This document shows, in pieces, positions 2,306-41,118 of a DNA stretch of 64,000 nt. The notes beneath the pieces were generated by a model. It had not been told where the DNA came from. It ran no database searches and was given only the letters and a program-made list of their open reading frames with translations. This DNA is from Candidatus Dojkabacteria bacterium. Its GTDB lineage: Bacteria; Patescibacteriota; Dojkabacteria; B142; OLB20. The position numbers and the translations under genes were made by a program. The stretch lies in assembly GCA_030583785.1 (NCBI GenBank), contig CP129475.1, positions 978,209-1,042,208 of the forward strand, read 5' to 3'. The stretch's first letter is position 1; every line of letters begins with the position of its first letter.

Positions 2306-3747
2306 ACAAAGAGTTTGAATTTGTGATTGGACTCGAAGTCCATTTACAGGCAAAAACTGAATCAAAAATGTTTTGTAGATGCGCCGCAGATTATTTCGGA
2401 CAAAAACCGAATTCGAGGGTTTGTCCTGTCTGTTTGGGCTTGCCTGGTGCTCTTCCTGTTCCAAATGCACTAGCAGTAAAAAAATGTCTTAGTCTTTGCC
2501 TCGCAACGAATTGTCAAATAAACAAGATTAGTAAGTTTGACCGCAAAAACTACTTCTATCCAGATTTACCTAAGGGATATCAAATATCACAGTATGATTT
2601 GCCACTTGGTGAAAATGGATTCTTAGAATTCGATGTAGACAGCGATTCGCGCAGGGTCAGGATTCGTCGCATTCATTTAGAAGAAGATACTGGAAAATCG
2701 ATGCACACAAACGAAGAAACTTTGCTTGATTTTAATAAGTCCGGAATACCATTAATTGAAATTGTTACAGAACCAGATTTCGTCGATATAGAAGAAGTAC
2801 TGGCCTTTGCTAAAAGATTAAGGCAAACAGTTCGTTACCTTGGCATCAGCAATGCTGATATGGAAAAGGGGCAAATGCGTTACGAACTTAACATGTCGCT
2901 TAGAAAAGTCGGCAGTCAAAAGCTACCCCAGTACAAAGTAGAAGTTAAAAACATCGGCTCAATATCCGTTTTAGAAAAGGTAATAAAGTACGAGTTCGAC
3001 CGACAGGCAGACATTCTTGCTTCTGGTAAGCTTCCAACGCAAGAAACACGAGGTCTTCGTGACTTAAGTGGAAAAACCTACTCGCAAAGAATCAAAGAAG
3101 ACGCAGATGATTATCGATATTTCCCGGAGCCAGATATACCTCCAATGCACTTTTCAGATGAATACCTAGAAGAAATTAAGAGCACTATTTGTGAACTGCC
3201 ACAGGCAAGAAAGCATCGATATGTATTTGATTACAAATTAGAACCCGATACTGCAGAAGTGTTGATAACTTCCAAGGTCCGATCCGATTGGTTTGAAGAA
3301 GCTATTGAGAAGATTAAAGACACAGCCTTAATTAAAGAGATTGCAAAATGGCTGATAAAAGATGTTAACGCCATTATTAAAGAGCAGAAGCTCAAGCTAA
3401 GTGAGCTTAAATTTACTCCCAAGCAGTTCTCTCAATTAGTAGAGATGCTTTATCAGAAGAAACTATCAGGCACTCTGGCAAAACAGGTTTTAGCAGAGAT
3501 GAATTCTACTGGAGATGAACCCGAAGCTATTGTTAATAGAAAGGGACTAAGTATTATGGCAGATGAAACCGAACTGATCAAGGTTATAAAAACAGTCTTC
3601 AAAGATAACGCAAATGTTGTTGGCGATACAAAGAAAAATCCCAATGCCGCCAAGTTCTTATTAGGACAAGTCATGAAGGCCACAAAAGGTAAAGCAGATC
3701 CAGCAGAGAGCGCAAGATTAATCGCAGATTTGTTATCAAAAGAATAA
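2302..3747 (+). CDS. gatB: Asp/Glu-tRNA amidotransferase subunit B
   Basis: N-terminus reads [17 protein letters not shown], and the C-terminus carries a GatB/YqeY domain. Start overlaps the gatA stop (ATGA). Confidence 0.92.
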
Positions 3748-14696: not shown

Positions 14697-16325
14697 ATGG
14701 ATCCTAAAAGAAAGGCACTATTAATATTTCTCTTTTTAGCCACAGTTGTGGTTGGTGTAGCTGCTGTTTACATAGGCCTACAGCTACAGGATCAGCCAGA
14801 TGTTACTCCAGATGATACTAGTGCAGCACCTGCTGCATGTTGTGAGAATGCCGGTGGTCCTTGTGATGCAGGTACTAGCTGTGGTGGATTTGATTTACAA
14901 CAAGCATGTAATGCAGGAAGAGGCTGGTGTTGGTGTGCACAGACAAATAACAAATGTCCAGAAGATCCTGGACAAACTTTAGAAACTTTTTGCGGAACGA
15001 GTAATTGGGATGGAAATGTTACTTATACATGTCCGAGCGGTCAAGTTATCTCATCAGCTCCAACAGCATTTCGAGATTGTGGAGTTTGCGGTGGTCCAAC
15101 CTCTCCACCAAATACAAACACTCCAACACCAACGCCACGAAAGGCAATATGTGGAGAGTCATGTAATACGAATGCAGATTGTGCACCTTCAACTGGAGGA
15201 GCAAGAGTAATATGTCAGAATAGAAGATGCGTAAATGAGAATTGTCCAAACAATACAACACCAGGAACAATATGTTCATGCGGAAACACAGCTAGTTGTG
15301 GAGAGCCATGCGGAAAGAATACACTTCCACTATGTGGAGACGGAATCAGTGAATGCGGATTTATAGGACCGGGAATAACCCAATGTAGTGAGAGTCAAAG
15401 AAACCCATGGAATCAATATTGTCTACCAAGAAATCCAGCCAATGGATATACAAGGCAGAGATGTACAACAATAGCTGCATGGCACCTATTTGCGCCAAAC
15501 GGACAGGCGGTAACAACACAAGCTCAGGTGAGAGAAGCTTGTGTACCTTATACACCAACTCCTACTCCGACACCAACATATCAGATTGCTGATTGCGGTG
15601 ATCCTTGCGATCCTGCTCAGGGCTCGTCTGCATGCGTTGTTGGACATACTTGTACCGATGTAAATGGAACAAATCAATGTGTTCTTAATCAATGTGTGAC
15701 AAATCCGGCTCTTTGTGAAGCAGACAGATGTAGCCTGTTAAACGAGGTACCATTAACAAAAAGCGCAAGAACAATATGTAGTGATTCAAATACCCCAGCT
15801 AATCAGATTGCAGTGTTTACAATTGTTGCTCAAAATGATCAAGCTGTAGCAAGAACATTCACGATCAGAGATACATTAGACTCAAGAATAACAGATTCAA
15901 TGGTAGTGCAGGCTAGTCTTACAAACGGAGGAACTGTCAGCGGAGGAGTCATTACCTGGCAAAATCTTCAGGTACCGGCAAACGGAACATTGACACTTTC
16001 GTATCAGGTGGCTTTAACTGGTAATCTTACAAACGAGACGCTATCCAATAGTGTTCTGCTGCTTGAGAACGGAGTTGAAAGAGGACAGGACTCAATTCAA
16101 TATACTCCAGGGTTATTACCATGTACTGCACTTATTTCAGATGAGGTAGACAGGATACTGATTGCAGCGGCTTTAATACTGCTTGGGTTTTCAATGTATA
16201 CATTCAAAGTTCATTATCAAATTGGTGATCTACTTAACCCTGAAGGTGCTTACTGGAAGAGCAAGCACAAAGCCAAAGCTGCAAAGTTCGGGGAGAAAAT
16301 AAGCAAAACCATTGACGGTCGATAG
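14697..16325 (+). CDS. Cys-rich surface protein, tandem paralog of the previous gene
   Basis: Same N-terminus and same C-terminus (TALISDEVDRI, TM, K). It shares a near-identical internal cassette of about 145 aa with the upstream paralog. Confidence 0.7.
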   Translation: MDPKRKALLIFLFLATVVVGVAAVYIGLQLQDQPDVTPDDTSAAPAACCENAGGPCDAGTSCGGFDLQQACNAGRGWCWCAQTNNKCPEDPGQTLETFCGTSNWDGNVTYTCPSGQVISSAPTAFRDCGVCGGPTSPPNTNTPTPTPRKAICGESCNTNADCAPSTGGARVICQNRRCVNENCPNNTTPGTICSCGNTASCGEPCGKNTLPLCGDGISECGFIGPGITQCSESQRNPWNQYCLPRNPANGYTRQRCTTIAAWHLFAPNGQAVTTQAQVREACVPYTPTPTPTPTYQIADCGDPCDPAQGSSACVVGHTCTDVNGTNQCVLNQCVTNPALCEADRCSLLNEVPLTKSARTICSDSNTPANQIAVFTIVAQNDQAVARTFTIRDTLDSRITDSMVVQASLTNGGTVSGGVITWQNLQVPANGTLTLSYQVALTGNLTNETLSNSVLLLENGVERGQDSIQYTPGLLPCTALISDEVDRILIAAALILLGFSMYTFKVHYQIGDLLNPEGAYWKSKHKAKAAKFGEKISKTIDGR

Positions 16326-25610: not shown

Positions 25611-25641
25611 ATGTGTACCTAGTCGTGGTAAAATCACCTAT

Positions 25642-25714
25642 GCGCTCTTAGCTCAATGGATAGAGCACCTGTCTTCGGAACAGGGGGTTGGGGGTTCGAC
25701 TCCCTCAGAGCGCA
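25642..25714 (+). tRNA. tRNA-Arg (anticodon TCG)
   Basis: Acceptor GCGCTCT pairs with AGAGCGC. Anticodon stem CCTGT/ACAGG with loop CTTCGGA. An extended -10 element (TGGTAAAAT) lies just upstream. Confidence 0.85.
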
Positions 25715-25757
25715 GGATTGTATGGTTTCTGATATAATTACCATGCTTCATCGCTTC

Positions 25758-25829
25758 GGGCTGGTAGCTCAATGGTAGAGCAGTTGCCTCTTAAGCAATT
25801 GGTTCCGGGTTCGAGTCCCGGCCAGCTCA
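25758..25829 (+). tRNA. tRNA-Lys (anticodon CTT)
   Basis: Acceptor GGGCTGG pairs with CCAGCTC. Anticodon stem GTTGC/GCAAT with loop CTCTTAA. T-arm CCGGG-TTCGAGT-CCCGG. Confidence 0.85.
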
Positions 25830-25913: not shown

Positions 25914-28900
25914 ATGAGAAAAAAGCGAATGTATATTCCGTTAAATCCTTTGTTAGATGCTCTTCCAGAGATAACTAGAAAAATCAGAGAGATTGAAAAT
26001 AAGATATATATATTATTGATAGCAGTTGTTCTTCTTGGAGGTGTATTTGCGGGAGTTAATGGACTTAATATGTTTGGAGGAATATATGCACAGCAGTTTT
26101 GTCCTCTTCCGGCAGCCCCTGCCAAAGTTCTGTCACTAGTTACAATTACTCCTGATTCTGAAGACGGTGTTGTGGATTGTTCATCTCTAGATATTATTAT
26201 CGGAGCAGGAGGAACAGTTGTCGTTGATAGATATGTAACAGAGAATGGCACAAGCGAGGGTGATTGGGGGGTTACGCTACTTGTTAAGAGTCTTACAGTT
26301 GAAAATGGCGGATTGATCTCTGCCGATGGTAAAGGTTATACAAATACTGATGACGAAGTTGTTAGTGGTAAAGGTGGAAACGCAACTACTACAGCTGGTG
26401 GATCGGGGGGAGCACATGGGGGTGCCGGTGGAGAAGGTTTAGCACCTGTAGGTGGCTCGGCTCCAGTTCCAGGTGTGGCATATGGAACAGAAGAAAATCC
26501 CTCAACTCTAGGAAGTGCTGGAGGCAACAGTTTTGATGGAGGTTTAGGTGGAAATGGAGGTGGATCTATTCGAATTCGAGCCAGTGAATACTTAGTAATT
26601 AATGGACAAATAACTGCTAATGGAGCACAGGGACTCGCTCAAGGGAACAGTTCAGGGGGTGGTGGAGCAGGAGGTAGTATTTGGATTGAAGCAGAATCGT
26701 TTTCTGGGAATGGAATAGTAGAAGCAAAGGGAGGAAGTGCTCAAGAGGTTACATACCAAGGAGGAGGTGGCGGTGGAGGTAGAATTATTATGTTCTGCAA
26801 CTCCTCAAATCTTTTTACTGGCAGTGTGTCTGTTTCTCCAGGAATCACTTCACTTTCTCAAGATGGAGGAATAGGTTCTCGGCTTGGGCCAACCTGCATA
26901 CCAAACGAACCGACTCTACTCAAGCAATTCTCAAAATATGATCCCCCAGGAGCTACTCCTCTACAAACTGTAGAAATCGGCCAAGGTGGTGTCATGCGGA
27001 CAGACAGACTAGATTCTGTGTTGTTTGTTGCCAATATGTCCGATATTGATGTAACGGACACTCTTACACTACAAATTGAAGTCAGACCAATTGGAACAAG
27101 TTTTACTGGAGTTCCAACTCATACTCAGTCAGTTAACATGAGCAATCCTCAGAATTGTTCTAGTCCTCCTTCGGGTTGCGGAACAATAGATATACCAAAG
27201 GCACAACTACCTGCCTCTACAGAGTATCATTGGCAGGCAAGAATAAGAGATAATAGAGGTGGAATAAGTGAATGGACACAATTCGGAAATAATAATGATG
27301 GTGAACGAGATTTCTTAATAACAGGAACACCGACAAATATTCTTCTTGTAAGTGGTGGCAATCAATCAGGCGTTGTCGGTCAGCCATTGGCTAACCCTAT
27401 GTTGGTGCGTGTGCTTGATGCTGCTGGTTATGGTGTACCAGACCAAAGTTTGACTTGGTCAATCCAAAACGGTGGTGGCACTCTTGGGTCACAAACATCA
27501 ATTTCCAATACAGAAGGTGTTGCTCAGAACACCCTAACACTTGGAGTTGTATCCGGAAACAATTCTAACACTGTTCGAGTGAGCGGTGTAGGCTCAGCTT
27601 TAGATATCAATCATTCATCAATCTCAGATGAAGCTGTAAGATTCTCGCTTTCAACGCCAACGGTTGCCATCCGATCAGAAGAATTTACCTTTTCGGTCAT
27701 AGCCTATGACCAATATAATAATATTGCGACCACTTACGATGGTTCTCCCAATCTATCTGTCGTTAATCCATTGAATTATTCACAGACTGTAGGTGGGAAT
27801 TTTGTACCTAGCTCAATTACTTTCCAACTAGGTGATCAAGGGCAAAAGGTGATTAGTAATGCAACCTTTGATACATTGGCGAGTATCGCAATAAAGGTAG
27901 TTGACGGAGATATCTTTGGATATTCAAATGCAATTGCCATTGTTGACACATTGGGGCAGTGTCCAGACGCTGATGGTATTATTGATTCGGGTGGAGACAT
28001 TGTCTGGGAAGCAGGAAATTATCCGGGAGCAATTATTGATTGCAGAGGATTAGACATTGTAGTTAAGTCGTCAAATACATCTCAAGTAACAAATCTTGTT
28101 ATCAGGCCTTCCTTAACTGAATCAGTTCCGGCGACCCTTCTTGCCGATAGTATAACAATAGAAAGTGGAAACTCTCTAAATTCGGACAGAAGAGGATTTA
28201 CTGCAGGTCAAGGACCAGGTACAGGATGTGGAGCAGCTCATGGAGGTTACGGAGTAAGTGTGTCAAACAGAGGAGTGCCGTATGGTTCAGTTAAAGAACC
28301 GGTAACGATGGGATCCGGAGGTTGTACACGAAGTTACTTTGGTAATCTCTCAGTAGGAGGCGAAGGAGGAGGAGCAATCAAAATTGTTTTAACTGGTAAC
28401 CTTGTCGTTAATGGAAGACTTACAGCAGATGGAGGACCGGGAACTAGCAATATAACACAAGGAGCGGTGGGAGCAGGAGGATCACTATGGTTGAGTGCAG
28501 ACAGAATAGACGGTAGCGGACTCATAAGTGCTAACGGAGGAAACAGAGCAGGAGCAGGAGGATCAGGAGGAGGAAGAATAGCCATATACGAGAACAGTAG
28601 AGGAAGTTTTCCAATAACAAACAAGAGTAACATACAGGCATTTGGAGGAGGAGGCGGAAGCTTTGGAGGAGCAGGAACAATATACATAGATGCAGATGGA
28701 CAAAGCGGAGGCAACGGAGATTTATGGATAAACAATAACAATAGAAATACAGAAGCAGCAGGAGTACCATACGATGCAGTAAACCCGGTACAGCAGTTTA
28801 ACAAGATATATCTAAAGGAATACGGACACTTGCAGATAATGGGACTGGATTCGACCTTGGTAATACCAAGCCAAGAAAGTGTTGAAGGTGATAACTCAGC

Positions 28901-31900
28901 TCCAATTTTAGAAGTTATCGGTACTATTCAACTACCTAGTAATTACATTGTAGATAGATATACTCTTTCGATTGCCGGAGATTACACTGGTGCTTCTGAA
29001 TTAATAATAGGTAACGGCAGTAATCCGGCCAATTTAAGACTATATGCGTATAATCAGAAGCGGTACTCTAATAAATCCCCTAACCATGATGTTTATGAAT
29101 TTTCTTCTTTGACAGTCCGTAGTGGTGCATCCCTGTTTCTGTTCTCTTATGATGGTAATGGTTCTGCAAACAATGGCCGAGGACTTCAAGATTATGGGGT
29201 AAGAATAATTGTGGACGAAGACTTTGAGATTGAAGCAGGAGGCTTAGCAACAAGCAATGGAAGAGGTTATGCTACTGCATTGGGACCAGGGACAGGATGT
29301 GGAGCAGGTCATGGAGGTTACGGAGTAAATGTAGCTAACAGAGGAGTACCATATGGTTCAGTTAAAGAACCTGTAACAATGGGATCCGGAGGTTGTACAC
29401 GAAGTTACTATGGTAATCTTTCAGTAGGAGGAGAAGGAGGAGGAGCAGTAAGACTGAATGTAGGAGGAGTACTTAGGGTAGATGGAAGTCTGACAGCAGA
29501 CGGAGGACCGGGAACAAATAACCTAACACAGGGAGCAGTAGGAGCAGGAGGATCACTATGGTTGAGTGCAGACAGAATAGACGGTAGCGGACTCATAAGT
29601 GCTAACGGAGGAAGCAGAGCAGGAGCAGTAGGATCAGGAGGAGGAAGAATAGCCATATACGAGAACAGTAGAGGAAGTTTTCCAATAACAAACAAGAGTA
29701 ACATACAGGCATTTGGAGGAGGAGGCGGAAGTTATGGAGGAGCAGGAACAATATACATAGATGCAGATGGACAAAGCGGAGGCAACGGAGATTTATGGAT
29801 AAACAATAACAATAGAAATACAGAAGCAGCAGGAGTACCATACGATGCAGTAAACCCGGTACAGCAGTTTAACAAGATATATCTAAAGGAATACGGACAC
29901 TTGCAGATAATGGGACTGGATTCGACCTTGGTAATAACAGATGAAGAAGGACTCGAAGGAGACACAACAGTACCAAGATTAGAGCCACAGGGATTAATAA
30001 GTCTACCGGAGAGATTTGTGGTAGACAGAGTAAACCTAGACATTATAGGAGACATAGAAGGAGCAGGAGATTTAGAGATAGGAAATGGAGATGAACCAGC
30101 GGCAGTAACATTGTATGCTTACACACAGAAGAGATACACAGCCAAGAGTCCAAACCACGATGTGCATATACTAGAGAGTTTAATAGTTAGAGACAAATCT
30201 GTACTTAACTTGGTATCTTATGACGGCAACGGGACATACATGAATGCATCTTCACTGTCTGACTATGGAGTAACACTAACACTAGGTCGAGACTTTACAG
30301 TAGAGACTGGAGGAATAGTAACAACAAATGGAAGAGGTTACGCAAGAGGAGCAGGACCTGGGACAGGATGCGGAGCAGCTCATGGAGGTTACGGAGTAAA
30401 TGTGTCAAGTCAGGGAGTACCGTATGGTTCAGTTAAAGAACCGGTAACGATGGGATCCGGAGGATGTTCTAGAGACTACTTTGGGAACTGGTCCTTTGGA
30501 GGAGAGGGAGGAGGAGCAGTAAGACTGAATGTAGGAGGAGTACTTAGGGTAGATGGAAGTCTGACAGCAGACGGAGGACCGGGAACAAATAACCTAACAC
30601 AGGGAGCGGTAGGAGCAGGAGGATCACTATGGTTGAGTGCAGACAGAATAGACGGTAGTGGACTCATAAGTGCTAACGGAGGAAGCAGAGCAGGAGCAGT
30701 AGGATCAAGTGGAGGAAGAATAGCCATATACGAGAATAGTAGAGGAAGTTTTCCAATAACGAACAAGAGTAACATACAGGCATTTGGAGGAGGAGGCGGA
30801 AGCTTTGGAGGAGCAGGAACAATCTACATAGATGCAGATGGACAAAGCGGAGGCAACGGAGATTTATGGATAAACAATAACAATAGAAATACAGAAGCAG
30901 CAGGAGTACCATACGATGCAGTAAACCCGGTACAGCAGTTTAACAAGATATATCTAAAGGAATACGGACACTTGCAGATAATGGGACTGGATTCGACCTT
31001 GGTAATAACAGATGAAGAAGGACTCGAAGGAGACACAACAGTACCAAGATTAGAGCCACAGGGATTAATAAGTCTACCGGAGAGATTTGTGGTAGACAGA
31101 GTAAACCTAGACATTATAGGAGACATAGAAGGAGCAGGAGATCTAGAGATAGGAAATGGAGACGAACCAGCGGCAGTAACATTGTACGCATACACACAGA
31201 AGAGATACACAGCCAAGAGTCCAAACCACGATGTGCATATACTAGAGAGTTTAATAGTCAGAGATAAATCTGTACTTAACTTGGTATCTTATGATGGCAA
31301 CGGGACATACATGAATGCATCTTCATTGTCTGACTATGGAGTAACACTAACACTAGGTCGAGACTTTACAGTAGAGACAGGAGGAGTAGTAACAACAAAC
31401 GGAAGAGGTTACGCAAGAGGAGTGGGACCAGGGACAGGATGCGGAGCAGCTCATGGAGGTTACGGAGTAAGTGTGTCAAGTCAGGGAGTACCGTATGGTT
31501 CAGTTAAAGAACCTGTAACGATGGGATCCGGAGGATGTTCCAGAGACTACTTTGGGAACTGGTCTTATGGAGGAGAAGGAGGAGGAGCAGTAAGACTGAA
31601 TGTAGGAGGAGTACTTAGGGTAGATGGAAGCTTGACAGCAGACGGAGGACCGGGAACAAATAACCTAACACAGGGAGCAGTAGGAGCAGGAGGATCACTA
31701 TGGTTAAGTGCAGACAGAATAGACGGTAGCGGACTCATAAGTGCTAACGGAGGAAGCAGAGCGGGAGCAGTAGGATCAGGAGGAGGAAGAATTGCCATAT
31801 ACGAGAATAGTAGAGGTAGTTTTCCAATAACAAACAAGAGTAATATACAGGCATTTGGAGGAGGAGGCGGAAGCTTTGGAGGAGCAGGAACAATCTACAT

Positions 31901-34900
31901 AGATGCAGATGGACAAAGCGGAGGCAACGGAGATTTATGGATAAACAATAACAACAGAAATACAGAAGCAGCAGGAGTACCATACGATGCAGTAAACCCG
32001 GTACAGCAGTTTAACAAGATATATCTAAAGGAATACGGACACTTGCAGATAATGGGACTGGATTCGACCTTGGTAATAACAGATGAAGAAGGACTCGAAG
32101 GAGACACAACAGTACCAAGATTAGAGCCACAGGGATTAATAAGTCTACCGGAGAGATTTGTGGTAGACAGAGTAAACCTAGACATTATAGGAGACATAGA
32201 AGGAGCAGGAGATCTAGAGATAGGAAATGGAGACGAACCAGCGGCAGTAACATTGTACGCATACACACAGAAGAGATACACAGCCAAGAGTCCAAACCAC
32301 GATGTGCATATACTAGAGAGTTTAATAGTCAGAGATAAATCTGTACTTAACTTGGTATCTTATGATGGCAACGGGACATACATGAATGCATCTTCATTGT
32401 CTGACTATGGAGTAACACTAACACTAGGTCGAGACTTTACAGTAGAGACAGGAGGAGTAGTAACAACAAACGGAAGAGGTTACGCAAGAGGAGTGGGACC
32501 AGGGACAGGATGCGGAGCAGGTCATGGAGGTTACGGAGTAAGTGTGTCAAGTCAGGGAGTACCGTATGGTTCAGTTAAAGAACCTGTAACGATGGGATCC
32601 GGAGGATGTTCCAGAGACTACTTTGGGAACTGGTCTTATGGAGGAGAAGGAGGAGGAGCAGTAAGACTGAATGTAGGAGGAGTACTTAGGGTAGATGGAA
32701 GCTTGACAGCAGACGGAGGACCGGGAACAAATAACCTAACACAGGGAGCAGTAGGAGCAGGAGGATCACTATGGTTAAGTGCAGACAGAATAGACGGTAG
32801 CGGACTCATAAGTGCTAACGGAGGAAGCAGAGCAGGAGCAGTAGGATCAGGAGGAGGAAGAATTGCCATATACGAGAATAGTAGAGGTAGTTTTCCAATA
32901 ACAAACAAGAGTAATATACAGGCATTTGGAGGAGGAGGCGGAAGCTTTGGAGGAGCAGGAACAATCTATGTATTCTCTAGGTCAATAAACCCAGAGGTAG
33001 GTAGTCTTTACTTATTCTCAAATAGAAGCAATATCGATTATTCTGAAGACTTTGTTGCTGGTGAATTCTTCCTACATGATTTAATACTCGATGATGGAGT
33101 AAAAGTAAAATTAAACAGTAATCTAGATGAAGGTTACGGAACAATTTACAACCTGACAGGTGATTTCTATCTAGGAGAAAATTCTCTTATTGATGGGTTT
33201 GCAAGAGGCTATCCTTCAGAGCAGGGACCAGGAGCGGGTCAAACTGGTCTAGGACAATCTGGAGGTGGGGGAGCAGGTCATGGCGGTAGTGGTGGTAATG
33301 GTGAATCTGATGGAGGCAACCCATCTCCCGTTGGAGGACAATTCTATGGAAATCAACGAGAACCTTTAACAGTTGGATCTGGTGGTGGTAGATCAGGTGC
33401 TGGTGCCGCCGGAGGCAGAGGTGGCGGAGCGATTGCCTTAAGAGTTAGAACTGGACATGTAGAAATTAACGGCAATATTGATGTGCGAGGTGAGGCTGGA
33501 CTTATTGCATCTCCAGGTGGAGGCGGAGGCGCTGGGGGGTCAGTTCTAATTGAAGGTCAAACATGTGATATCTCAGGCAATATTTTGGCAAATGGCGGTA
33601 ACGGAGGAGAAGAAGCATTTGATGGAGGTGGTGCAGGAGGCGGAAGGGTGTCAATTCTAACAACCCAGGGACCTTGTGACATTAATGGCTTGGTCGATGT
33701 TAATCAAGGCTCGAGTAGCGGAGGTCAATCTGGACAGGTAGGAACTTATCCAACGCTTGGTACTATCCCTGCAGTTCCAGACTTTCGTGATCAGTTTAAA
33801 ACAGACTCAGTAACTACCATTCCAGTTGGAGGAATAACACAAGAACAGGAAGTAGTTCTAAAAGTTAATATGTCCGACCCCGGAGGGTCTGAATCTAATA
33901 GTATCTCACTTCAAGCTCAATTCGAAGTTGTTAGAGTCGACGAAGAATTTACTGGGGTTGCATTGATATCAAGTGAAAACTTCTTCTTAGCATCAGATAG
34001 TCAAGATGAAGAGTCATCGGTGCTTGGAATATCGACAAGCACAACGGGTAATTATTCAGGTGGTGCGCCCCTACTCGCGGAAGCTAGCATCAGTGATCTC
34101 ATACCTGGAGCCAGTTATAAATGGCGTGCCAGAGTTATTAACCCATCTGAAGGAATATCTGGAACATGGGTAGAGTATGGAGGGAATGGTTCAGATCAAG
34201 CCGACTTTATTGTCAGTACGGTAGAGTCGTTAACCATCGAATCTGATAAATACAATGTTGAAGTTGGAGAGCCAATTACTCTAACTGTAAGTTCTTTGGA
34301 TGAAGATAATCAACTGGATCCATCATATCGAGGAACTGTTCAGTTCATATCTAACTCTGAGACTGCAGTTTTACCGGTTAATTATTCTTACACTTCAATT
34401 GATCAAGGTGTGAAAGAATTTACAGAAGAAACGATTTTTGTTGAACCAGGTGTATATACCATTACAGTCAGAGATACAATCAATGCTCTCTTGCAAGCAA
34501 CAACAGCAGATATAACTGTAACAGGTGATCCCGAGTCTGAAAATAATATTGATCCAGATATTTGTTTGATAGAGCCAAATCGCATCGAATGTCAACAGCC
34601 TGTTAGGATATCGAATGTTAGAATAAGTCTTATAGAAAGAGGATCAGTTAGAATATGTTGGGATACAAATATTGCAACCAGAGGCACGATTAATTATGGT
34701 CTTCTTGAGAACGCTCAATTGACAGATTCTGTTGGCCCCGAATCAACTTATAAAGTAAGAGATCATTGTTTAGATCTAATAGAACTCGATGATCCAGAAG
34801 AATACATATTCAGAATTACAGCGGTATCTTATGCTGGAAGAAGCGCTACATATACAGGAGGTTTCAATACTTTAGGAGAAGTAATCACAGATATTCCCGA

Positions 34901-36122
34901 GGTAAATGCCTGTATATTAACTGATTCAAACTTCTACGCATTAAATGCACAAAATCAGATTGTCTTTAGTTATCGAACTTTGTCGCCAACTAATTGTAGC
35001 TTCACTTATTCACAGACAGGCAGATTCTCAAGAACGAATCAATCACAGGAACAGTTATTGTCGCATCAAACAACAGTTGAACTTAGCGAATTAGCTGCAG
35101 ATATTGATCTTGATTACTTGATAAATTGCAGCGTAGAAAGTATGGATGAATTAATATCTTGTCAGACTGCAGGATCAATTCCTAGCAATGTTTTCTCGGA
35201 TAGATTAAGGTCAGACGGTGAGATTGAACAATCTACACTCCTAAGAACAATAACCGAGTCTGTAGTACCGCTTGTTCTCGTTTCATCTGCATTCGCTCTT
35301 CTTGCCGCCAATACTATTGCTTATCCACAGGTCGGTTTGTACGCACTTGCTTGGATTAAAGATAGAAAACGCTACTTACCTTGGGGTATTGTCTACGACT
35401 CAAGAAATAAAAAACCAATTCCGTTTGCTGTCGTTCGGCTTTATCAGGAAGGAATGCTAGTAGTTGAAAGACTAACTGATATGTCAGGAAGATATGGAAT
35501 GGTGGCTGATCCAGGTAGTTATAATCTGGTTGTCGAGCATACCGACTATGCTCGTATTGCCAGGAAACTGGAAATTACAAAAGAAGATTCAACAGTTAGT
35601 GAAGATTTCGCTCTAAGTATCGGCGAAAATAGCTCTGCCGCAACAAGAACTAAACTAAGAGAGGTCTTAAGAACCATTAATAACCTTGTGGTTTATATCG
35701 GATTTGCGTTTGCGATTGTGATCACAGTCATCTCTCCAGTACTGATTAATTTCTTGGTGTTGGCATTTTATATTGTTCAGTTTGTTATTGTTGCGATTCT
35801 GGAAAATCTATCTAAGCGAAGATGGGGATACATATTTGATTATCAAAGCAAAAGTAGGATTCCTAGAGCCTTTGTGCGCTTGTTTAGCGTTGCTGAAGAA
35901 AGACAAATTGATGTTCAAATCGCGGATGATCAAGGAAGGTATGGATTCTCTGCGGAACCGGGGGAATACAGAATCAAGGTTGATGCAGACAACTATCAGA
36001 TGGCAGGAATCAAAGACGGTTTTCTTAGGGTTAGTATCGATAAGGCCGAGAAACTAAACAAGAATATTGCTATGGAAAGATCTTTGCAGAAAGGTGCAAG
36101 CAAAGGTTTCCTTTCTACCTAG
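25914..36122 (+). CDS. giant (3402 aa) glycine-rich surface protein
   Basis: Signal/TM anchor, then about seven glycine-rich GGAI-type beta-helix-like modules, plus Ig-like (Big) domains. The C-terminus has multi-pass TM segments interleaved with two carboxypeptidase-regulatory-like domains. Confidence 0.85.
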   Translation: MRKKRMYIPLNPLLDALPEITRKIREIENKIYILLIAVVLLGGVFAGVNGLNMFGGIYAQQFCPLPAAPAKVLSLVTITPDSEDGVVDCSSLDIIIGAGGTVVVDRYVTENGTSEGDWGVTLLVKSLTVENGGLISADGKGYTNTDDEVVSGKGGNATTTAGGSGGAHGGAGGEGLAPVGGSAPVPGVAYGTEENPSTLGSAGGNSFDGGLGGNGGGSIRIRASEYLVINGQITANGAQGLAQGNSSGGGGAGGSIWIEAESFSGNGIVEAKGGSAQEVTYQGGGGGGGRIIMFCNSSNLFTGSVSVSPGITSLSQDGGIGSRLGPTCIPNEPTLLKQFSKYDPPGATPLQTVEIGQGGVMRTDRLDSVLFVANMSDIDVTDTLTLQIEVRPIGTSFTGVPTHTQSVNMSNPQNCSSPPSGCGTIDIPKAQLPASTEYHWQARIRDNRGGISEWTQFGNNNDGERDFLITGTPTNILLVSGGNQSGVVGQPLANPMLVRVLDAAGYGVPDQSLTWSIQNGGGTLGSQTSISNTEGVAQNTLTLGVVSGNNSNTVRVSGVGSALDINHSSISDEAVRFSLSTPTVAIRSEEFTFSVIAYDQYNNIATTYDGSPNLSVVNPLNYSQTVGGNFVPSSITFQLGDQGQKVISNATFDTLASIAIKVVDGDIFGYSNAIAIVDTLGQCPDADGIIDSGGDIVWEAGNYPGAIIDCRGLDIVVKSSNTSQVTNLVIRPSLTESVPATLLADSITIESGNSLNSDRRGFTAGQGPGTGCGAAHGGYGVSVSNRGVPYGSVKEPVTMGSGGCTRSYFGNLSVGGEGGGAIKIVLTGNLVVNGRLTADGGPGTSNITQGAVGAGGSLWLSADRIDGSGLISANGGNRAGAGGSGGGRIAIYENSRGSFPITNKSNIQAFGGGGGSFGGAGTIYIDADGQSGGNGDLWINNNNRNTEAAGVPYDAVNPVQQFNKIYLKEYGHLQIMGLDSTLVIPSQESVEGDNSAPILEVIGTIQLPSNYIVDRYTLSIAGDYTGASELIIGNGSNPANLRLYAYNQKRYSNKSPNHDVYEFSSLTVRSGASLFLFSYDGNGSANNGRGLQDYGVRIIVDEDFEIEAGGLATSNGRGYATALGPGTGCGAGHGGYGVNVANRGVPYGSVKEPVTMGSGGCTRSYYGNLSVGGEGGGAVRLNVGGVLRVDGSLTADGGPGTNNLTQGAVGAGGSLWLSADRIDGSGLISANGGSRAGAVGSGGGRIAIYENSRGSFPITNKSNIQAFGGGGGSYGGAGTIYIDADGQSGGNGDLWINNNNRNTEAAGVPYDAVNPVQQFNKIYLKEYGHLQIMGLDSTLVITDEEGLEGDTTVPRLEPQGLISLPERFVVDRVNLDIIGDIEGAGDLEIGNGDEPAAVTLYAYTQKRYTAKSPNHDVHILESLIVRDKSVLNLVSYDGNGTYMNASSLSDYGVTLTLGRDFTVETGGIVTTNGRGYARGAGPGTGCGAAHGGYGVNVSSQGVPYGSVKEPVTMGSGGCSRDYFGNWSFGGEGGGAVRLNVGGVLRVDGSLTADGGPGTNNLTQGAVGAGGSLWLSADRIDGSGLISANGGSRAGAVGSSGGRIAIYENSRGSFPITNKSNIQAFGGGGGSFGGAGTIYIDADGQSGGNGDLWINNNNRNTEAAGVPYDAVNPVQQFNKIYLKEYGHLQIMGLDSTLVITDEEGLEGDTTVPRLEPQGLISLPERFVVDRVNLDIIGDIEGAGDLEIGNGDEPAAVTLYAYTQKRYTAKSPNHDVHILESLIVRDKSVLNLVSYDGNGTYMNASSLSDYGVTLTLGRDFTVETGGVVTTNGRGYARGVGPGTGCGAAHGGYGVSVSSQGVPYGSVKEPVTMGSGGCSRDYFGNWSYGGEGGGAVRLNVGGVLRVDGSLTADGGPGTNNLTQGAVGAGGSLWLSADRIDGSGLISANGGSRAGAVGSGGGRIAIYENSRGSFPITNKSNIQAFGGGGGSFGGAGTIYIDADGQSGGNGDLWINNNNRNTEAAGVPYDAVNPVQQFNKIYLKEYGHLQIMGLDSTLVITDEEGLEGDTTVPRLEPQGLISLPERFVVDRVNLDIIGDIEGAGDLEIGNGDEPAAVTLYAYTQKRYTAKSPNHDVHILESLIVRDKSVLNLVSYDGNGTYMNASSLSDYGVTLTLGRDFTVETGGVVTTNGRGYARGVGPGTGCGAGHGGYGVSVSSQGVPYGSVKEPVTMGSGGCSRDYFGNWSYGGEGGGAVRLNVGGVLRVDGSLTADGGPGTNNLTQGAVGAGGSLWLSADRIDGSGLISANGGSRAGAVGSGGGRIAIYENSRGSFPITNKSNIQAFGGGGGSFGGAGTIYVFSRSINPEVGSLYLFSNRSNIDYSEDFVAGEFFLHDLILDDGVKVKLNSNLDEGYGTIYNLTGDFYLGENSLIDGFARGYPSEQGPGAGQTGLGQSGGGGAGHGGSGGNGESDGGNPSPVGGQFYGNQREPLTVGSGGGRSGAGAAGGRGGGAIALRVRTGHVEINGNIDVRGEAGLIASPGGGGGAGGSVLIEGQTCDISGNILANGGNGGEEAFDGGGAGGGRVSILTTQGPCDINGLVDVNQGSSSGGQSGQVGTYPTLGTIPAVPDFRDQFKTDSVTTIPVGGITQEQEVVLKVNMSDPGGSESNSISLQAQFEVVRVDEEFTGVALISSENFFLASDSQDEESSVLGISTSTTGNYSGGAPLLAEASISDLIPGASYKWRARVINPSEGISGTWVEYGGNGSDQADFIVSTVESLTIESDKYNVEVGEPITLTVSSLDEDNQLDPSYRGTVQFISNSETAVLPVNYSYTSIDQGVKEFTEETIFVEPGVYTITVRDTINALLQATTADITVTGDPESENNIDPDICLIEPNRIECQQPVRISNVRISLIERGSVRICWDTNIATRGTINYGLLENAQLTDSVGPESTYKVRDHCLDLIELDDPEEYIFRITAVSYAGRSATYTGGFNTLGEVITDIPEVNACILTDSNFYALNAQNQIVFSYRTLSPTNCSFTYSQTGRFSRTNQSQEQLLSHQTTVELSELAADIDLDYLINCSVESMDELISCQTAGSIPSNVFSDRLRSDGEIEQSTLLRTITESVVPLVLVSSAFALLAANTIAYPQVGLYALAWIKDRKRYLPWGIVYDSRNKKPIPFAVVRLYQEGMLVVERLTDMSGRYGMVADPGSYNLVVEHTDYARIARKLEITKEDSTVSEDFALSIGENSSAATRTKLREVLRTINNLVVYIGFAFAIVITVISPVLINFLVLAFYIVQFVIVAILENLSKRRWGYIFDYQSKSRIPRAFVRLFSVAEERQIDVQIADDQGRYGFSAEPGEYRIKVDADNYQMAGIKDGFLRVSIDKAEKLNKNIAMERSLQKGASKGFLST
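28140..32965 (+). repeat. about 4.5 tandem copies of a 1071-nt (357-aa) in-frame coding repeat inside the giant gene
   Basis: The GGATCC landmark recurs at 28311, 29382, 30453, 31524 and 32595, exactly 1071 nt apart. Copies 3 to 5 are virtually identical at the nucleotide level. Antisense ORFs recur with the same period. Confidence 0.9.
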
Positions 36123-38915: not shown

Positions 38916-40058
38916 TTATCTACCTAATTTGGGGGCAATATCAATTTCTGGCAAGGAGGATCCAATGGTTTCAGATATCCTTTTTTCACTTTCTGTTTTT
39001 GGAATTGCTTTGGCCGTTATATATAATAGGCTCGAAACCAATATTACCGCACCTCCGGAGTATAACATCATCTCAAATAAGAGTTCAAAAAGTCTTTTTA
39101 GAAACAAAGCTATGGCAGCAGACATTTCTGTTGATAGGGCAGACTGTTGAAGTATATCCGGAAGAAACAAATTAATTATTAACTGAGGCGAATTACTTCC
39201 AAGAAAGCCTATTGCAAAAACTACAACCCCAGTAACGATGAAAAAGCCGGCGAAAGTTGATAAGGCATTTCTGATGTTAAATGAACCTAAGAATATTGTT
39301 AAGACTAGGATTGAAATCGCAGCTACAATTAGGCAGATACCAAGAATCAAAGATGAGGTTGCGGCATCTTTTAAGGCCATGATCGAACTTAATAGGCTAT
39401 CTCTAGTTTCTTCTTGTTGCGCATCGAGAATTTGCAGAAAATACACTTCCGAAGTAAGATCCGGGTAGTTCAAGATTGTTGAAAAAACCTTATTGTTATT
39501 ATAGTTGCTACTTTGAAGTGTATCTAGATACGAGGTGATTTGGTTTTGTATTAACTGTTGTCCTGGAGCAGTGAGCTCTTCTCTGCAGATAGGAAATATC
39601 TTATTCTTCTCAATTGTTTCGTCAGTGCATACGGGTAATTCTCTGCTATAGCGTGCAATCTGATCAAAGGTGATCATACTAAGATCAAGCTCTTGGATTT
39701 CTTTGTCTATTAGTTGGTCAGGAATATAAATCCGTAGTTCATTGTTTTTGCCATTAATCCAGTCAAATAGTCTATCCACATTTTCTTCTGCAGCTTCTAC
39801 GGTAATAGTAGGAAAGTCTATCAGAGAAACGATATACTCAGCAAAAGATGTTTCAAGAGCTTCTTCACCAATGGTGTCAATAATAAATTGGTCTTCAATT
39901 GAAAGGCGGATTTCTTTATAGATTCCCGAAGGTGCAAGTGATCTCTTGTATGTCGCACTGTCAAGGGCGCGCAATCTAAAAGTAAGAATGCTAATACCAG
40001 TTGTGGCAAGAAGAAGTGCCAGAAACAGGAGGACTAGACGAATGCTTTTACTTATCAC
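38916..40058 (-). CDS. membrane protein (N-terminal TM, soluble domain of about 200 aa, C-terminal multi-TM), paralog of the upstream gene
   Basis: Shares topology and the N-terminal motif YK.SL..SGIY with 40048..41118. Confidence 0.5.
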   Translation of the reverse strand: MISKSIRLVLLFLALLLATTGISILTFRLRALDSATYKRSLAPSGIYKEIRLSIEDQFIIDTIGEEALETSFAEYIVSLIDFPTITVEAAEENVDRLFDWINGKNNELRIYIPDQLIDKEIQELDLSMITFDQIARYSRELPVCTDETIEKNKIFPICREELTAPGQQLIQNQITSYLDTLQSSNYNNNKVFSTILNYPDLTSEVYFLQILDAQQEETRDSLLSSIMALKDAATSSLILGICLIVAAISILVLTIFLGSFNIRNALSTFAGFFIVTGVVVFAIGFLGSNSPQLIINLFLPDILQQSALSTEMSAAIALFLKRLFELLFEMMLYSGGAVILVSSLLYITAKAIPKTESEKRISETIGSSLPEIDIAPKLGR

Positions 40059-41118
40059 TTTTTATATTTGCGTTAATAAATAATAAAGCTATTCGAAGTA
40101 GAATGGTAAACAATAACATTGTAATACCAATATAGAGAGGTGGCTCTAATAGTCCTTTTATAAAATGTGTAGCAAGAATTGATACTCCATAAGGCTCGCT
40201 AATCAATTGCGATACGACATCTTCGGCAATTAATCTGGGTATCAATGCTGCTAAAGTTAATAATAGCGCAGTAAAAAATGAGATCGAGCTTAATGTGGCT
40301 ACAAGTACTCGCAAGTTAAAATCCTTCTGTGATAAGGCAATAATGGTAAAGAAAACCGATGCCAAAATTAATAACAATGGAATAATTACTCGAAAAGAGA
40401 AAATCGCTCTCGTCAGGTCTAATGAGTCTCTAATTTGTGCTAATTGTGATTCGTCTCTAATTAGTAATGCGATTGGTGTGTTTTCGTTTAGGTCGCCAAG
40501 ACCAGATTCATCTAATATCGTTGCAAGTAAGTTTTCATTATCAAGTGTAGTAACTGCCTTTTGCTCAATTGCATTTAGAATATCTTCTCTAAGTTTTTGA
40601 TCAGAGGGTAGGCATGAAGGTATAAGCAACTGTTCTCGATTACTAAAGTCTTCAATAATTATTTTTTCCTGAGTTACTGTACAGGCTTCAAGCATAACGA
40701 ATTCCCTCTCTATAGCCTGAAGAAAACCCTTGGCAATTTCTGAAGAGTTGTAGTTGGATTGAAGTCTTTCTTTTGGGAAATAGAATTCAAGTGACTCGCT
40801 TCTAGAATCAATGAATGATAACGCCCTCTCAATATTTTCTTCTGCTATTTCTTTAGCGATATCATCGAATTCAATACTTCTGATTATTGGTCGAAGCAGA
40901 ACGAAAGCGCTACTATCTTGTTGCTCTTTATCTAACTGTGACAGAAGCCGAGCTTGAATCTGTGAATCGATTTGATAATAGATGCCACTTGTTTCTAATG
41001 ACTGTTTGTAAAGATTTGGATTTAACAGCTGTTGTGATACGGTTAAAAGTAACAGTCCGAAGAAAGCTGAAGCCACGGCCATGGCGCAAAAGACTGTTTT
41101 AATGATAGATGAAACCAT
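40048..41118 (-). CDS. membrane protein, tandem paralog
   Basis: Same architecture as the downstream paralog. Overlaps it by 11 nt. Confidence 0.5.
   Translation of the reverse strand: MVSSIIKTVFCAMAVASAFFGLLLLTVSQQLLNPNLYKQSLETSGIYYQIDSQIQARLLSQLDKEQQDSSAFVLLRPIIRSIEFDDIAKEIAEENIERALSFIDSRSESLEFYFPKERLQSNYNSSEIAKGFLQAIEREFVMLEACTVTQEKIIIEDFSNREQLLIPSCLPSDQKLREDILNAIEQKAVTTLDNENLLATILDESGLGDLNENTPIALLIRDESQLAQIRDSLDLTRAIFSFRVIIPLLLILASVFFTIIALSQKDFNLRVLVATLSSISFFTALLLTLAALIPRLIAEDVVSQLISEPYGVSILATHFIKGLLEPPLYIGITMLLFTILLRIALLFINANIKSDK

What the first reader, a model, noticed from the sequence alone, without database searches (positions are those of the whole stretch)
25914..36122. Architecture of the giant protein: glycine-rich GGAI-type modules and a multi-TM C-terminus with carboxypeptidase-regulatory-like domains
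A Gly-rich module of about 170 aa occurs at the N-terminus (about 26.3-26.8 kb), once in each 357-aa repeat, and again at about 33.2-33.7 kb. Its pattern runs (K/R)GY..GPG..GHGGYG, then GGGAI/V, then GGGAGGS(L/I)W, then ANGG, then GGGGRI. This resembles the right-handed beta-helix repeats of Pmp-type adhesins and autotransporter passengers. One Ig-like (Big) domain follows the N-terminal module. Near the end, hydrophobic helices alternate with two small domains matching the carboxypeptidase-regulatory-like fold (..AVVRLYQ..TDMSGRYG....PGSYNL and ..AFVRLFS....DDQGRYGF..EPGEYRI). The protein may therefore be membrane-embedded through a multi-pass C-terminus rather than sortase-anchored. I do not know this arrangement from described adhesins.
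Basis: partly seen in the sequence, partly recalled or inferred. Interest (0 to 1): 0.55.

Follow-up and report, generated by a model that had tools for sequence, protein, structure and literature searches.

The report
Giant membrane-anchored surface protein, CPR bacterium
This 3,402-residue gene of an ultrasmall candidate-phylum (WS6/Dojkabacteria) bacterium most likely encodes a cell-surface fibre built from seven glycine-rich coiled beta-sheet modules, and it is held in the membrane by a three-helix tail, common in these bacteria but apparently undescribed, whose two small folded domains probably face the cell interior.

Summary
One intact ORF (25914-36122, +) encodes 3,402 aa. It has seven copies of a ~190-aa Gly-rich module: one near the N-terminus, five in a 1,071-nt tandem array, and one after the array. 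The C-terminus has three hydrophobic helices alternating with two transthyretin/carboxypeptidase-regulatory-like sandwiches.

The Gly module is a real conserved domain, not low complexity. It has no Pfam model or PDB sequence relative. It shows a ~34-aa periodicity, and AlphaFold2 gives short-strand coils. Fold searches list mostly beta-helix proteins, none significant. It is not a Pmp or autotransporter member.

The C-terminal tail is not unique. About 3,500 cluster representatives match at E<=1e-30. In the 151 best hits examined the module almost always ends the protein, behind very different ectodomains; every named source is a CPR lineage. Basic flanks, and one relative with a histidine kinase fused after the second sandwich, place both sandwiches in the cytoplasm.

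A 35%-identical, 3,517-aa ortholog keeps the same architecture and the same seven modules.

Most likely this is a Sec-exported surface fibre or adhesin with a CPR-type anchor. I rate it a new variant of a known kind, of moderate interest.

The parts
25914..36122 (+). Giant gene, 3,402 aa plus stop codon
   Evidence: ORF list and translation. The 35%-identical full-length ortholog P0236 has a conserved start region.
25914..26099 (+). Extended N-terminal region with a hydrophobic signal or signal-anchor helix (aa 33-51) and a possible cleavage site IYA/QQ
   Evidence: Kyte-Doolittle peak of 2.43 at aa 33-51. The N-region motif MYI..N.L...LP..T is shared with P0236. Cleavage is inferred, not tested.
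26265..26879 (+). Gly-rich solenoid module N (aa 118-322)
   Evidence: HMM domain E 2e-56. It is 50% identical to the positional counterpart in P0236. It gives a weak AgmC_N match.
26901..27329 (+). Beta-rich domain with the motif YHWQARIRD..GG.SEW. It has no Pfam model. A second copy lies at 33747-34238.
   Evidence: Read from the translation. The same motif is in P0236 and P0068. No Pfam or PDB sequence hit. The fold was not predicted.
27339..27908 (+). Big_1 Ig-like domain (aa 476-570) followed by a second Ig-like domain (aa 571-665)
   Evidence: Pfam PF02369 scores 38.0 bits against a 34.9 cutoff on the sub-segment. The second domain is inferred from sequence pattern only.
28125..32972 (+). 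Tandem array of 357-aa units: four full units plus the Gly module of a fifth. Gly modules lie at 28131-28688, 29199-29759, 30270-30830, 31341-31901 and 32412-32972.
   Evidence: Start-to-start spacing is 1,071 nt. Units are 74-99% identical in protein and up to 97.7% in DNA. AlphaFold2 on aa 1095-1640 gives pLDDT 78.
33141..33746 (+). Gly-rich solenoid module C (aa 2410-2611)
   Evidence: HMM domain E 7.5e-59. It is 51% identical to the positional counterpart in P0236.
33747..35183 (+). C-terminal stalk: second YKWRARVIN domain, an Ig-like domain, an FN3-like domain and one further beta-rich domain
   Evidence: Read from the translation. There is weak PDB sequence similarity to titin and neogenin FN3 domains (E 0.0055-0.17). 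The region is conserved in P0069 and P0236.
35229..36119 (+). C-terminal anchor module as a whole (aa 3106-3402)
   Evidence: Family HMM E 5e-92. 27 relatives by profile word search. 3,523 cluster representatives at E<=1e-30.
35262..35363 (+). TM1 (aa 3117-3135) plus a short hydrophobic extension to aa 3150, followed by KDRKR
   Evidence: Hydropathy. A single long helix in AlphaFold2. Family profile of basic residues.
35385..35615 (+). Transthyretin/CarboxypepD_reg-like sandwich D1 (aa 3158-3234), predicted cytoplasmic
   Evidence: Pfam PF13715 at 30.2 bits. AlphaFold2 pLDDT is about 90 or higher for most of the domain. Foldseek matches carboxypeptidase D. Topology is inferred.
35667..35801 (+). 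TM2-TM3 hairpin (aa 3252-3270 and 3278-3296) joined by a short uncharged loop
   Evidence: Hydropathy. Two helices in AlphaFold2. Family profile.
35826..36080 (+). Transthyretin-like sandwich D2 (aa 3305-3389), predicted cytoplasmic
   Evidence: NOMO_5th at 21 bits. AlphaFold2 pLDDT is about 90 or higher for most of the domain. The homologous domain in P0143 is followed directly by HisKA and HATPase_c.

Best explanation
The gene encodes a Sec-exported giant cell-surface fibre, most likely an attachment protein, of a Dojkabacteria (WS6, CPR/Patescibacteria) bacterium.

The ectodomain (about aa 63-3100) is a chain of seven glycine-rich beta-solenoid modules with coils of about 34 residues. Five of them sit in a homogenised 357-aa tandem array. 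Ig-like and FN3-like sandwich domains are interspersed, and paired cysteines probably stabilise the modules.

The protein stays on the cell through a C-terminal module typical of CPR proteins. TM1 crosses inward. A transthyretin-like sandwich (D1) lies in the cytoplasm. A TM2-TM3 hairpin dips out and back, and a second sandwich (D2) is again cytoplasmic.

Shown: the domain content, the repeats, the conservation, the anchor family and its C-terminal position.
Inferred: export, the solenoid fold, the cytoplasmic location of D1 and D2, and the adhesive role.
For: - Gene and repeats.
- Seven modules detected by HMM, and the same seven at matching positions in the 35%-identical ortholog P0236.
- The module is conserved in 66 copies from 64 other proteins from Planctomycetes, Verrucomicrobia, CPR and others. 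Two of ten scanned end in a GC-type dockerin surface anchor.
- Periodicity of 34-35 aa in both the Gly and the hydrophobic pattern. AlphaFold2 shows short-strand coils at pLDDT of about 84-97 in the coil region. Weak Foldseek lists consist mostly of beta-helix proteins.
- Extracellular indicators: N-terminal hydrophobic helix, Big_1, and 28 cysteines, all before the anchor, with a 32-residue spacing within each array module.
- Anchor: three helices and two sandwiches. The family is always C-terminal; 126 of 151 end exactly at the protein end. It sits behind diverse ectodomains: RCC1, Beta_helix, Lcl_C, Ig, CHB_HEX_C and DUF4215.
- Topology: K/R occupancy of about 0.6-0.9 at several positions after TM1, before TM2 and after TM3, and almost none in the TM2-TM3 loop. 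P0143 fuses HisKA and HATPase_c directly after D2 with no intervening hydrophobic segment.
- Literature context: very large proteins of Patescibacteria are reported as preferentially surface-targeted and as candidates for host recognition (PMC13059738).
Against: - No binding partner, host or expression data exist.
- No significant structural neighbour was found for the Gly module (best PDB E 0.31). Model coordinates were not inspectable, so the solenoid geometry and handedness rest on DSSP strings and periodicity.
- Carboxypeptidase-regulatory-like domains are usually extracytoplasmic in characterised proteins (my own knowledge). This lowers the prior for a cytoplasmic D1 and D2.
- In the Paceibacterota-type subfamily two hydrophobic segments precede D1, so the number of membrane passes there is ambiguous.
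- No dedicated topology predictor was available.
- The repeat copy number could be an assembly estimate, because units are up to 99% identical and older draft assemblies broke there.
Confidence: 0.62

Rival explanations
1. Envelope spacer or ruler. The protein is a structural element of the CPR cell envelope, such as an S-layer-associated strut or a spacer that sets the distance to the host, rather than a specific adhesin.
For: The number of Gly modules (seven) and their positions are conserved between orthologs that are only 35% identical. This holds even though the internal modules were homogenised in one lineage (78-99% identity) and are old and diverged in the other (33-51%). That pattern suggests selection on length. 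Both genes sit among housekeeping genes.
Against: The equal copy number rests on only two genomes and could be coincidence. No S-layer domain (SLH or similar) was detected. This reading is not exclusive of adhesion.
Confidence: 0.15
2. Enzymatic beta-helix. The Gly-rich modules are catalytic, like polysaccharide lyases, depolymerases or tailspikes, and digest host or prey envelope polymers.
For: Beta-helix is the fold of pectate lyases and tailspikes, and such proteins appear in the weak fold lists. A His (GHGG) and a Tyr (PYGS) are conserved in the Gly-rich loop.
Against: No hit to any lyase, hydrolase or Beta_helix Pfam model, even at E<=10. No significant fold match. Sevenfold repetition of a catalytic domain would be unusual.
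Confidence: 0.08
3. Inverted tail topology. D1 and D2 are extracellular, and the C-terminal region is a four-pass bundle that displays the two sandwiches next to the membrane.
For: CarboxypepD_reg-type domains are typically extracytoplasmic (my own knowledge). Many family members have two hydrophobic segments before D1.
Against: It would put all the strongly basic flanks outside the cell and leave uncharged or acidic 6-7-residue loops inside. This protein and its Dojkabacteria relatives have only one TM-length segment before D1. P0143 continues from D2 into a histidine-kinase core, which must be cytoplasmic.
Confidence: 0.13
4. Pmp-type or autotransporter-type passenger, as the first reader suggested by analogy.
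For: Each of six modules carries one GGGA(I/V) motif, and a solenoid is predicted. Autotransporter and TPS passengers appear among the non-significant fold hits.
Against: No Chlam_PMP, autotransporter or TPS model matches. FxxN is at chance level. There is no C-terminal beta-barrel; the protein has a helical anchor instead.
Confidence: 0.02

Closest known systems
Carboxypeptidase-regulatory-like / transthyretin-like domains (Pfam PF13620, PF13715; carboxypeptidase D C-terminal domain, PDB 5aq0 and 1qmu)
   Same: D1 and D2 adopt this seven-strand sandwich. Foldseek gives target-normalised TM 0.72-0.83, rmsd 2.0-2.4 A and 21-26% identity. Relatives carry PF13620 above its threshold.
   Different: Here the domains are wired between transmembrane helices, occur as a fixed pair at the extreme C-terminus, and are predicted to be cytoplasmic. 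In this protein the Pfam scores are just below threshold.
AgmC N-terminal domain (NCBIfam NF047640, Myxococcus adventurous gliding motility protein)
   Same: It is the only curated profile that touches the Gly-rich module. It matches aa 142-299 at E 1.6e-7, and it also matches three Planctomycete/Verrucomicrobial homologs.
   Different: The score is 30.6 bits against a cutoff of 275. That indicates a distant shared repeat type, not membership. I found no literature on AgmC structure or function.
Chlamydial Pmp and autotransporter/TPS passenger beta-helices
   Same: Glycine-containing coil motifs and a predicted parallel beta-solenoid used as a surface stalk.
   Different: No HMM match, no FxxN motif, no beta-barrel or TPS domain, and a helical membrane anchor. 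CPR bacteria are generally regarded as lacking an outer membrane (my own knowledge).
Giant repeat adhesins of other bacteria (LPXTG-anchored Ebh/Embp type; RTX adhesins)
   Same: Several thousand residues, homogenised tandem repeats, Ig-like domains, and a likely attachment role.
   Different: No LPXTG motif and no adhesin-repeat Pfam model among the matches. The repeat unit is a Pfam-less Gly-rich solenoid, and the anchor is a 3-TM, 2-domain module.
GC-type dockerin-anchored Gly-module proteins of Planctomycetes (NF041540)
   Same: They share the same Gly-rich module, often in tandem with a ~250-aa period.
   Different: They carry a different, lineage-specific anchor, have a shorter repeat period, and lack the Big / FN3-like frame seen here.
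Giant Omnitrophota proteins (bioRxiv 10.1101/2023.11.21.568195)
   Same: Ultrasmall, host-dependent bacteria with very large surface proteins that contain long beta-helix regions and C-terminal transmembrane and intracellular parts.
   Different: Those proteins exceed 10,000-30,000 aa and carry SecA-DEAD, dockerin or peptidase domains. No sequence relationship was seen here.

Membership tests
Chlamydial polymorphic membrane protein (Pmp) repeat family, PF02415 | Multiple GGA(I/L/V) and FxxN tetrapeptide repeats; match to the Chlam_PMP profile | tested here: not met
   No PF02415 match at E<=1 on the whole protein or E<=10 on isolated modules. GGA[ILV] occurs six times, once in each of six modules. 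FxxN occurs 5 times against 5.9 expected by composition.
Autotransporter (type V secretion) | C-terminal beta-barrel translocator domain | tested here: not met
   The C-terminus consists of three alpha-helical hydrophobic segments plus two sandwiches. No autotransporter Pfam hit.
LPXTG sortase substrates | LPXTG-like motif followed by a hydrophobic helix and a short basic tail at the C-terminus | tested here: not met
   No LP.[TSA]G motif anywhere in the protein. The tail is about 300 aa with three helices.
CarboxypepD_reg / transthyretin-like clan (PF13620, PF13715) | Profile match above the gathering threshold | tested here: inconclusive
   D1 scores 30.2 bits against 32.2 for PF13715. D2 matches only NOMO_5th, at 21.1 against 27. 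Homologous modules in relatives pass PF13620, at 36-57 bits against 32.3.
CarboxypepD_reg / transthyretin-like clan (PF13620, PF13715) | Seven-stranded transthyretin-like beta-sandwich fold | tested here: met
   The AlphaFold2 sandwiches have pLDDT of about 90 or higher for most of each domain. Foldseek matches carboxypeptidase D, N and M transthyretin-like domains with probability 1.00 and target-normalised TM up to 0.83.
Bacterial Ig-like domain group 1 (Big_1, PF02369) | Profile match above the gathering threshold | tested here: met
   38.0 bits against 34.9 on segment aa 480-737. The whole-protein scan gives 30.3 bits.
AgmC (NF047640 equivalog domain) | Score at or above the curated cutoff of 275 bits | tested here: not met
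   30.6 bits.
Right-handed parallel beta-helix (PF13229 and relatives) | Profile match, or a solved-structure neighbour with a significant score; right-handed coil | tested here: inconclusive
CPR C-terminal 3-TM / two-sandwich anchor module (unnamed family defined here) | TM1, basic stretch with (P)WG motif, sandwich 1, TM2-TM3 hairpin, basic stretch, sandwich 2, all at the extreme C-terminus | tested here: met
   Alignment with P0002 and P0003 at about 35% identity with the shared motifs. The family HMM matches aa 3116-3395 of the stop-to-stop frame (which begins six codons upstream of the ATG) at E 5e-92. The module ends within 7 residues of the stop codon.

The most novel reading that the evidence does not exclude
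The C-terminal module is an undescribed, CPR-wide transmembrane coupling device. Its three helices and two cytoplasmic transthyretin-like domains would connect surface ectodomains, including this giant fibre, to cytoplasmic partners. Contact with a host or substrate would then be reported inward (outside-in or mechanical signalling) rather than the module merely holding the protein in place. The natural fusion of the same module to a histidine-kinase core (P0143) would be the overt version of that function.
Probability: 0.22. Interest if true: 0.75.

Novelty: new variant of a known kind. Interest (0 to 1): 0.5.

Why it matters
All cultivated CPR/Patescibacteria are obligate episymbionts on other microbes (10.1101/2024.11.25.624915). 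How they recognise and hold on to hosts is largely unknown beyond type IV pili. This gene spends 10.2 kb on one surface protein, and its seven-module architecture is preserved at 35% identity.

The more general point is the tail. A single recognisable C-terminal module appears behind very different ectodomains in the 151 examined members of a family of about 3,500 representative proteins, and every source that names an organism is a CPR lineage. It could serve as a sequence signature for listing the surface-displayed proteins of these uncultured bacteria. Its apparently cytoplasmic sandwich pair, once fused to a histidine kinase, gives a concrete and testable idea of how surface contact might be coupled to the cell interior.

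The Gly-rich module is also a widespread domain that has no Pfam model.

Tried and rejected
- Tandem Repeats Finder found nothing because its period limit (500) is below 1,071 nt. The repeat finder and protein alignment were used instead.
- Pfam and NCBIfam on the whole protein and on eight sub-segments gave nothing for the Gly module, the non-Gly half of the unit, or the two YxWxAR domains.
- A PDB sequence profile search with the Gly module returned only a chance hit to ribosomal protein uS9.
- The genome-contig scan returned only a 4-kb contig of the same population, binned as 'Microgenomates OLB22'.
- Literature searches for the anchor or for AgmC found nothing relevant.
- The third cluster look-up added no taxonomic names.
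- None of the 150 listed anchor-bearing relatives contains the Gly module. The P0236 ortholog does contain it, but it came from a separate cluster look-up.
- Rejected ideas:
  - Pmp or autotransporter membership (see the membership table).
  - Sortase anchoring.
  - Low-complexity artefact: the module is conserved across phyla.
  - Horizontally acquired island: the higher GC of 28-34 kb is explained by Gly codons, and the flanks are housekeeping genes.
Full report
**The gene**

A single ORF runs from 25914 to 36122 on the + strand and encodes 3,402 aa. Glycine makes up 16.4% of residues. The gene sits in an ordinary chromosomal setting. Upstream lie 6-phosphogluconolactonase, glucose-6-phosphate dehydrogenase, DUF4230 and DUF218 genes, then tRNA-Arg and tRNA-Lys. 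Downstream lie thioredoxin, thioredoxin reductase and a NUDIX gene. The rest of the window holds GatA/GatB, RecJ, SHMT, FolD, ThyA, trigger factor, SufB, a Clp-type AAA+ ATPase and similar genes. The raised GC and strong purine skew at 28-34 kb coincide with the Gly-rich repeats and need no other explanation.

**Organism**

The last 196 residues match a 'partial' protein of candidate division WS6 bacterium OLB21 at 99% identity. A 4,034-nt contig binned as Microgenomates OLB22 matches window 31747-35769 at 99.65%.

**Checking the observation**

The 1,071-nt period is exact for five in-register copies. At protein level there are four full 357-aa units plus a fifth that keeps only the Gly-rich half. 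Units 3 and 4 are 97.7% identical in DNA. Unit 5 is 99-100% identical to unit 4 for its first 180 codons and then diverges.

An HMM built from the internal copies detects seven Gly modules of about 190 aa each, at aa 118, 740, 1096, 1453, 1810, 2167 and 2410.

Big_1 passes its Pfam threshold when the segment is scanned alone. It is separated from the N-terminal Gly module by a ~150-aa domain (motif YHWQARIRD..G.SEW), and a second Ig-like domain follows it. The same order recurs after the last Gly module: Gly module, YxWRAR domain, Ig-like domain. This suggests an old duplication of that three-part block.

**The Gly-rich module**

It is a conserved domain, not compositional noise. A search with one unit returned 64 proteins, all 'hypothetical'. 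The six with precomputed Pfam hits (CarboxypepD_reg or Ig-type domains) have none on the Gly module itself. The sources are Planctomycetes/Phycisphaerae, Verrucomicrobia, a Pacebacteria (CPR) genome, a gammaproteobacterium and many metagenomes. The module HMM finds 66 strong copies in them, usually in tandem with a period near 250 aa.

The family consensus keeps the same series as here..DGRGY..G.GPG.G...GHGG.G....YGS...P..LGSGGG...GG.GGGA(V)RL.V.G.L.VDG.I.A.GG.G....GG.GGSIWL.A..L.G.G.I.A.GG.....GGGGGRIA.Y....GGAGTIY.

Both the glycine and the hydrophobic patterns have an autocorrelation maximum at 34-35 residues. AlphaFold2 on aa 1095-1640 gave mean pLDDT 78. In both Gly modules it shows short strands recurring every 31-36 residues, mostly at pLDDT 84-97. 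It also shows a low-confidence stretch of about 50 residues in the non-Gly half, followed by more short-strand coils leading into the next module.

Foldseek found no significant neighbour in the PDB (best E 0.31). Most of the weak hits listed are beta-helix proteins: tapirin, Hbp, Hap, UpaB, Ssp, EtpA, HMW1, LpxD, bactofilin, ice-binding proteins and pectate lyase. Against viral models the best hits were giant-virus 'collagen-like' glycine-rich proteins (E 2e-4, TM about 0.25).

No Pfam model matches the module at E<=10, and a profile of it found no real relative among PDB sequences. The only curated profile that touches it is the N-terminal domain of Myxococcus AgmC, far below its cutoff.

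My conclusion is a Pfam-less glycine-rich beta-solenoid with coils of about 34 residues. The fold assignment is reasonably supported. The handedness and any polyglycine packing remain untested.

The Pmp analogy fails on its defining features. GGA[ILV] occurs only once in each of six modules, and FxxN is at chance level.

Two homologs end in a GC-type dockerin, the Planctomycete surface anchor. This fits a displayed passenger domain that different lineages attach by their own anchors.

**The C-terminal tail**

Hydropathy gives three segments, at aa 3117-3135, 3252-3270 and 3278-3296. AlphaFold2 (pLDDT 82) gives a long helix, a sandwich (aa 3158-3234), two helices, then a second sandwich (aa 3305-3389).

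The tail is not special to this protein. It aligns at about 35% identity with P0002 and P0003, in which the same tail follows DUF4215 cysteine-rich repeats. A profile search found 27 relatives, several annotated only as 'carboxypeptidase-like regulatory domain-containing protein' from Dojkabacteria. An exhaustive HMM search of 1.84 billion cluster representatives gave 3,523 hits at E<=1e-30. A few of the top hits are unrelated proteins made of tandem CarboxypepD_reg repeats.

Among the 151 best hits that cover more than 80% of the module, 126 end exactly at the protein's C-terminus. Their N-terminal parts are diverse: RCC1 propellers, a right-handed beta-helix, Lcl_C, Ig-like domains, chitobiase-C/Fn3-associated domains, cysteine-rich repeats and 'GYAWGENIGWINF' repeats. 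Full-length members usually start with a hydrophobic signal-like segment. Every source name that identifies an organism is a CPR lineage: Dojkabacteria, Paceibacterota and Staskawiczbacteria. That is only about ten names.

I found no Pfam or NCBIfam model for the module as a unit, and no paper describing it.

**Topology of the tail**

Two independent lines place D1 and D2 in the cytoplasm.

- Charge pattern. In the family alignment, several positions just after TM1 (consensus KKR.RPWG), before TM2 and after TM3 are K/R in about 60-90% of sequences. The TM2-TM3 loop (P..YN) is essentially uncharged. Here the flanks are KDRKR, TRTKLR and KRR.
- A natural fusion. P0143 (943 aa; its 90% cluster includes a Staskawiczbacteria protein that UniRef names a histidine kinase) has a signal peptide and an ectodomain. 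These are followed by the anchor module (aa 340-679), then HisKA (728-783) and HATPase_c (832-942). There is no hydrophobic segment after D2. A kinase core must be cytoplasmic. So D2 is cytoplasmic, and D1 lies on the same side across the TM2-TM3 hairpin.

All 28 cysteines of the giant lie before the anchor, with a constant 32-residue spacing within each array module. This is compatible with an oxidising, extracellular ectodomain.

Three cautions apply. In the Paceibacterota-type subfamily two hydrophobic segments precede D1. No dedicated topology predictor was available. And such sandwich domains are usually extracytoplasmic elsewhere (my own knowledge). I put the cytoplasmic placement at about 0.7-0.75.

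**Conservation**

A cluster look-up revealed P0236, a 3,517-aa protein on a 201-kb metagenomic contig. It is 35% identical over about 3,000 residues. It shares these features with the giant:

- the extended N-terminal region and hydrophobic helix;
- seven Gly modules at nearly the same positions (117, 750, 1121, 1451, 1815, 2144, 2394);
- both YxWRAR domains, Big_1, the FN3-like pair and the anchor.

It also has an added Pro/Thr linker. Its neighbours are different housekeeping genes, so no conserved operon partner emerges.

The N and C modules are positional orthologs (50-51% identity). The five internal modules are 33-51% identical to one another in P0236 but 78-99% identical here. So the array was homogenised or re-amplified in this lineage while the count stayed at five. 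This hints at selection on length, but it rests on two genomes.

**Mechanism proposed**

The steps below are inferred unless marked otherwise.

1. The N-terminal helix directs Sec export.
2. The ectodomain folds outside the cell into a long chain of solenoid modules and sandwich domains.
3. TM1 stops transfer.
4. D1, the TM2-TM3 hairpin and D2 form a cytoplasm-facing foot that retains the fibre. Its fixed C-terminal position is shown; the orientation is inferred.
5. The fibre mediates attachment to a host cell or to a polymer. This fits what is reported for very large surface proteins of Patescibacteria (PMC13059738).

Alternatives are an envelope spacer or ruler, a catalytic beta-helix, and an inverted tail topology. 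They are scored in the rivals section.

In two Paceibacterota genomes, anchor-bearing genes lie beside large genes with Peptidase_S74 (the self-cleaving chaperone of fibre proteins). This suggests a wider link between this anchor family and fibre display, but I did not pursue it.

**Verdict**

The protein is a new variant of a known kind, a giant surface fibre or adhesin. Its interest lies less in the giant itself than in two unannotated building blocks: a widespread Gly-rich solenoid module, and a large family of C-terminal anchors, so far seen only in CPR lineages, with probably cytoplasmic sandwich domains.

Noticed in passing
window 12745-14691 and 14697-16325 (+): Two adjacent paralogous genes (648 and 542 aa) with no Pfam match. 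Each has an N-terminal hydrophobic signal, cysteine-rich blocks that are nearly identical between the two (AICGESCNTNADCAPSTGGARVICQN...), Pro/Thr linkers and one C-terminal hydrophobic helix. They are probably further surface proteins with a simpler anchor.
   Followed up: partly
window about 35690 (aa ~3260 of the giant) versus P0001: The OLB21 'partial' protein is 99% identical up to ...LRTINNLVV and then reads LYRICVCDCDHSHLSCTD before stopping. The window continues in frame through TM2, TM3 and D2, as all homologs do. The public draft probably carries an indel there.
   Followed up: partly
L001 (LLEV01000004.1) versus window 31747-35769: A 4-kb contig deposited under 'Microgenomates bacterium OLB22' is 99.65% identical to part of this Dojkabacteria gene and starts inside the repeat array. 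It looks like a mis-binned fragment caused by assembly breakage in the repeats.
   Followed up: partly
P0143 (943 aa; its 90% cluster includes OGZ69805.1, Candidatus Staskawiczbacteria): The same anchor module is fused C-terminally to HisKA and HATPase_c. In at least one CPR lineage the module therefore serves as the membrane part of a sensor histidine kinase.
   Followed up: partly
L004 7931-12910; L005 3689-5926 and 8133-10592: In two Paceibacterota-type genomes, genes carrying the anchor module lie next to large genes with a Peptidase_S74 domain (the intramolecular chaperone of fibre and tailspike proteins), inside a ribosomal-protein neighbourhood.
   Followed up: no
window 25914-26009 (aa 1-32) and P0236 aa 1-40: A ~30-residue region before the N-terminal hydrophobic helix is conserved between the two orthologs (MYI..N.L...LP..T). 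It resembles the extended signal-peptide regions of other very large secreted proteins.
   Followed up: no
window 25641-25829 (+): tRNA-Arg(TCG) and tRNA-Lys(CTT) lie directly upstream of the giant gene, 85 nt before its start codon. The ortholog's locus has no tRNA listed there, but its gene table gives only called protein genes.
   Followed up: no
window 11224-12699 (+); 38916-40058 and 40048-41118 (-): Three membrane-protein genes with no Pfam match at E<=1e-5. One is a ~10-helix polytopic protein. The other two are adjacent paralog-like proteins with an N-terminal helix, a ~200-aa soluble part and several C-terminal helices.
   Followed up: no
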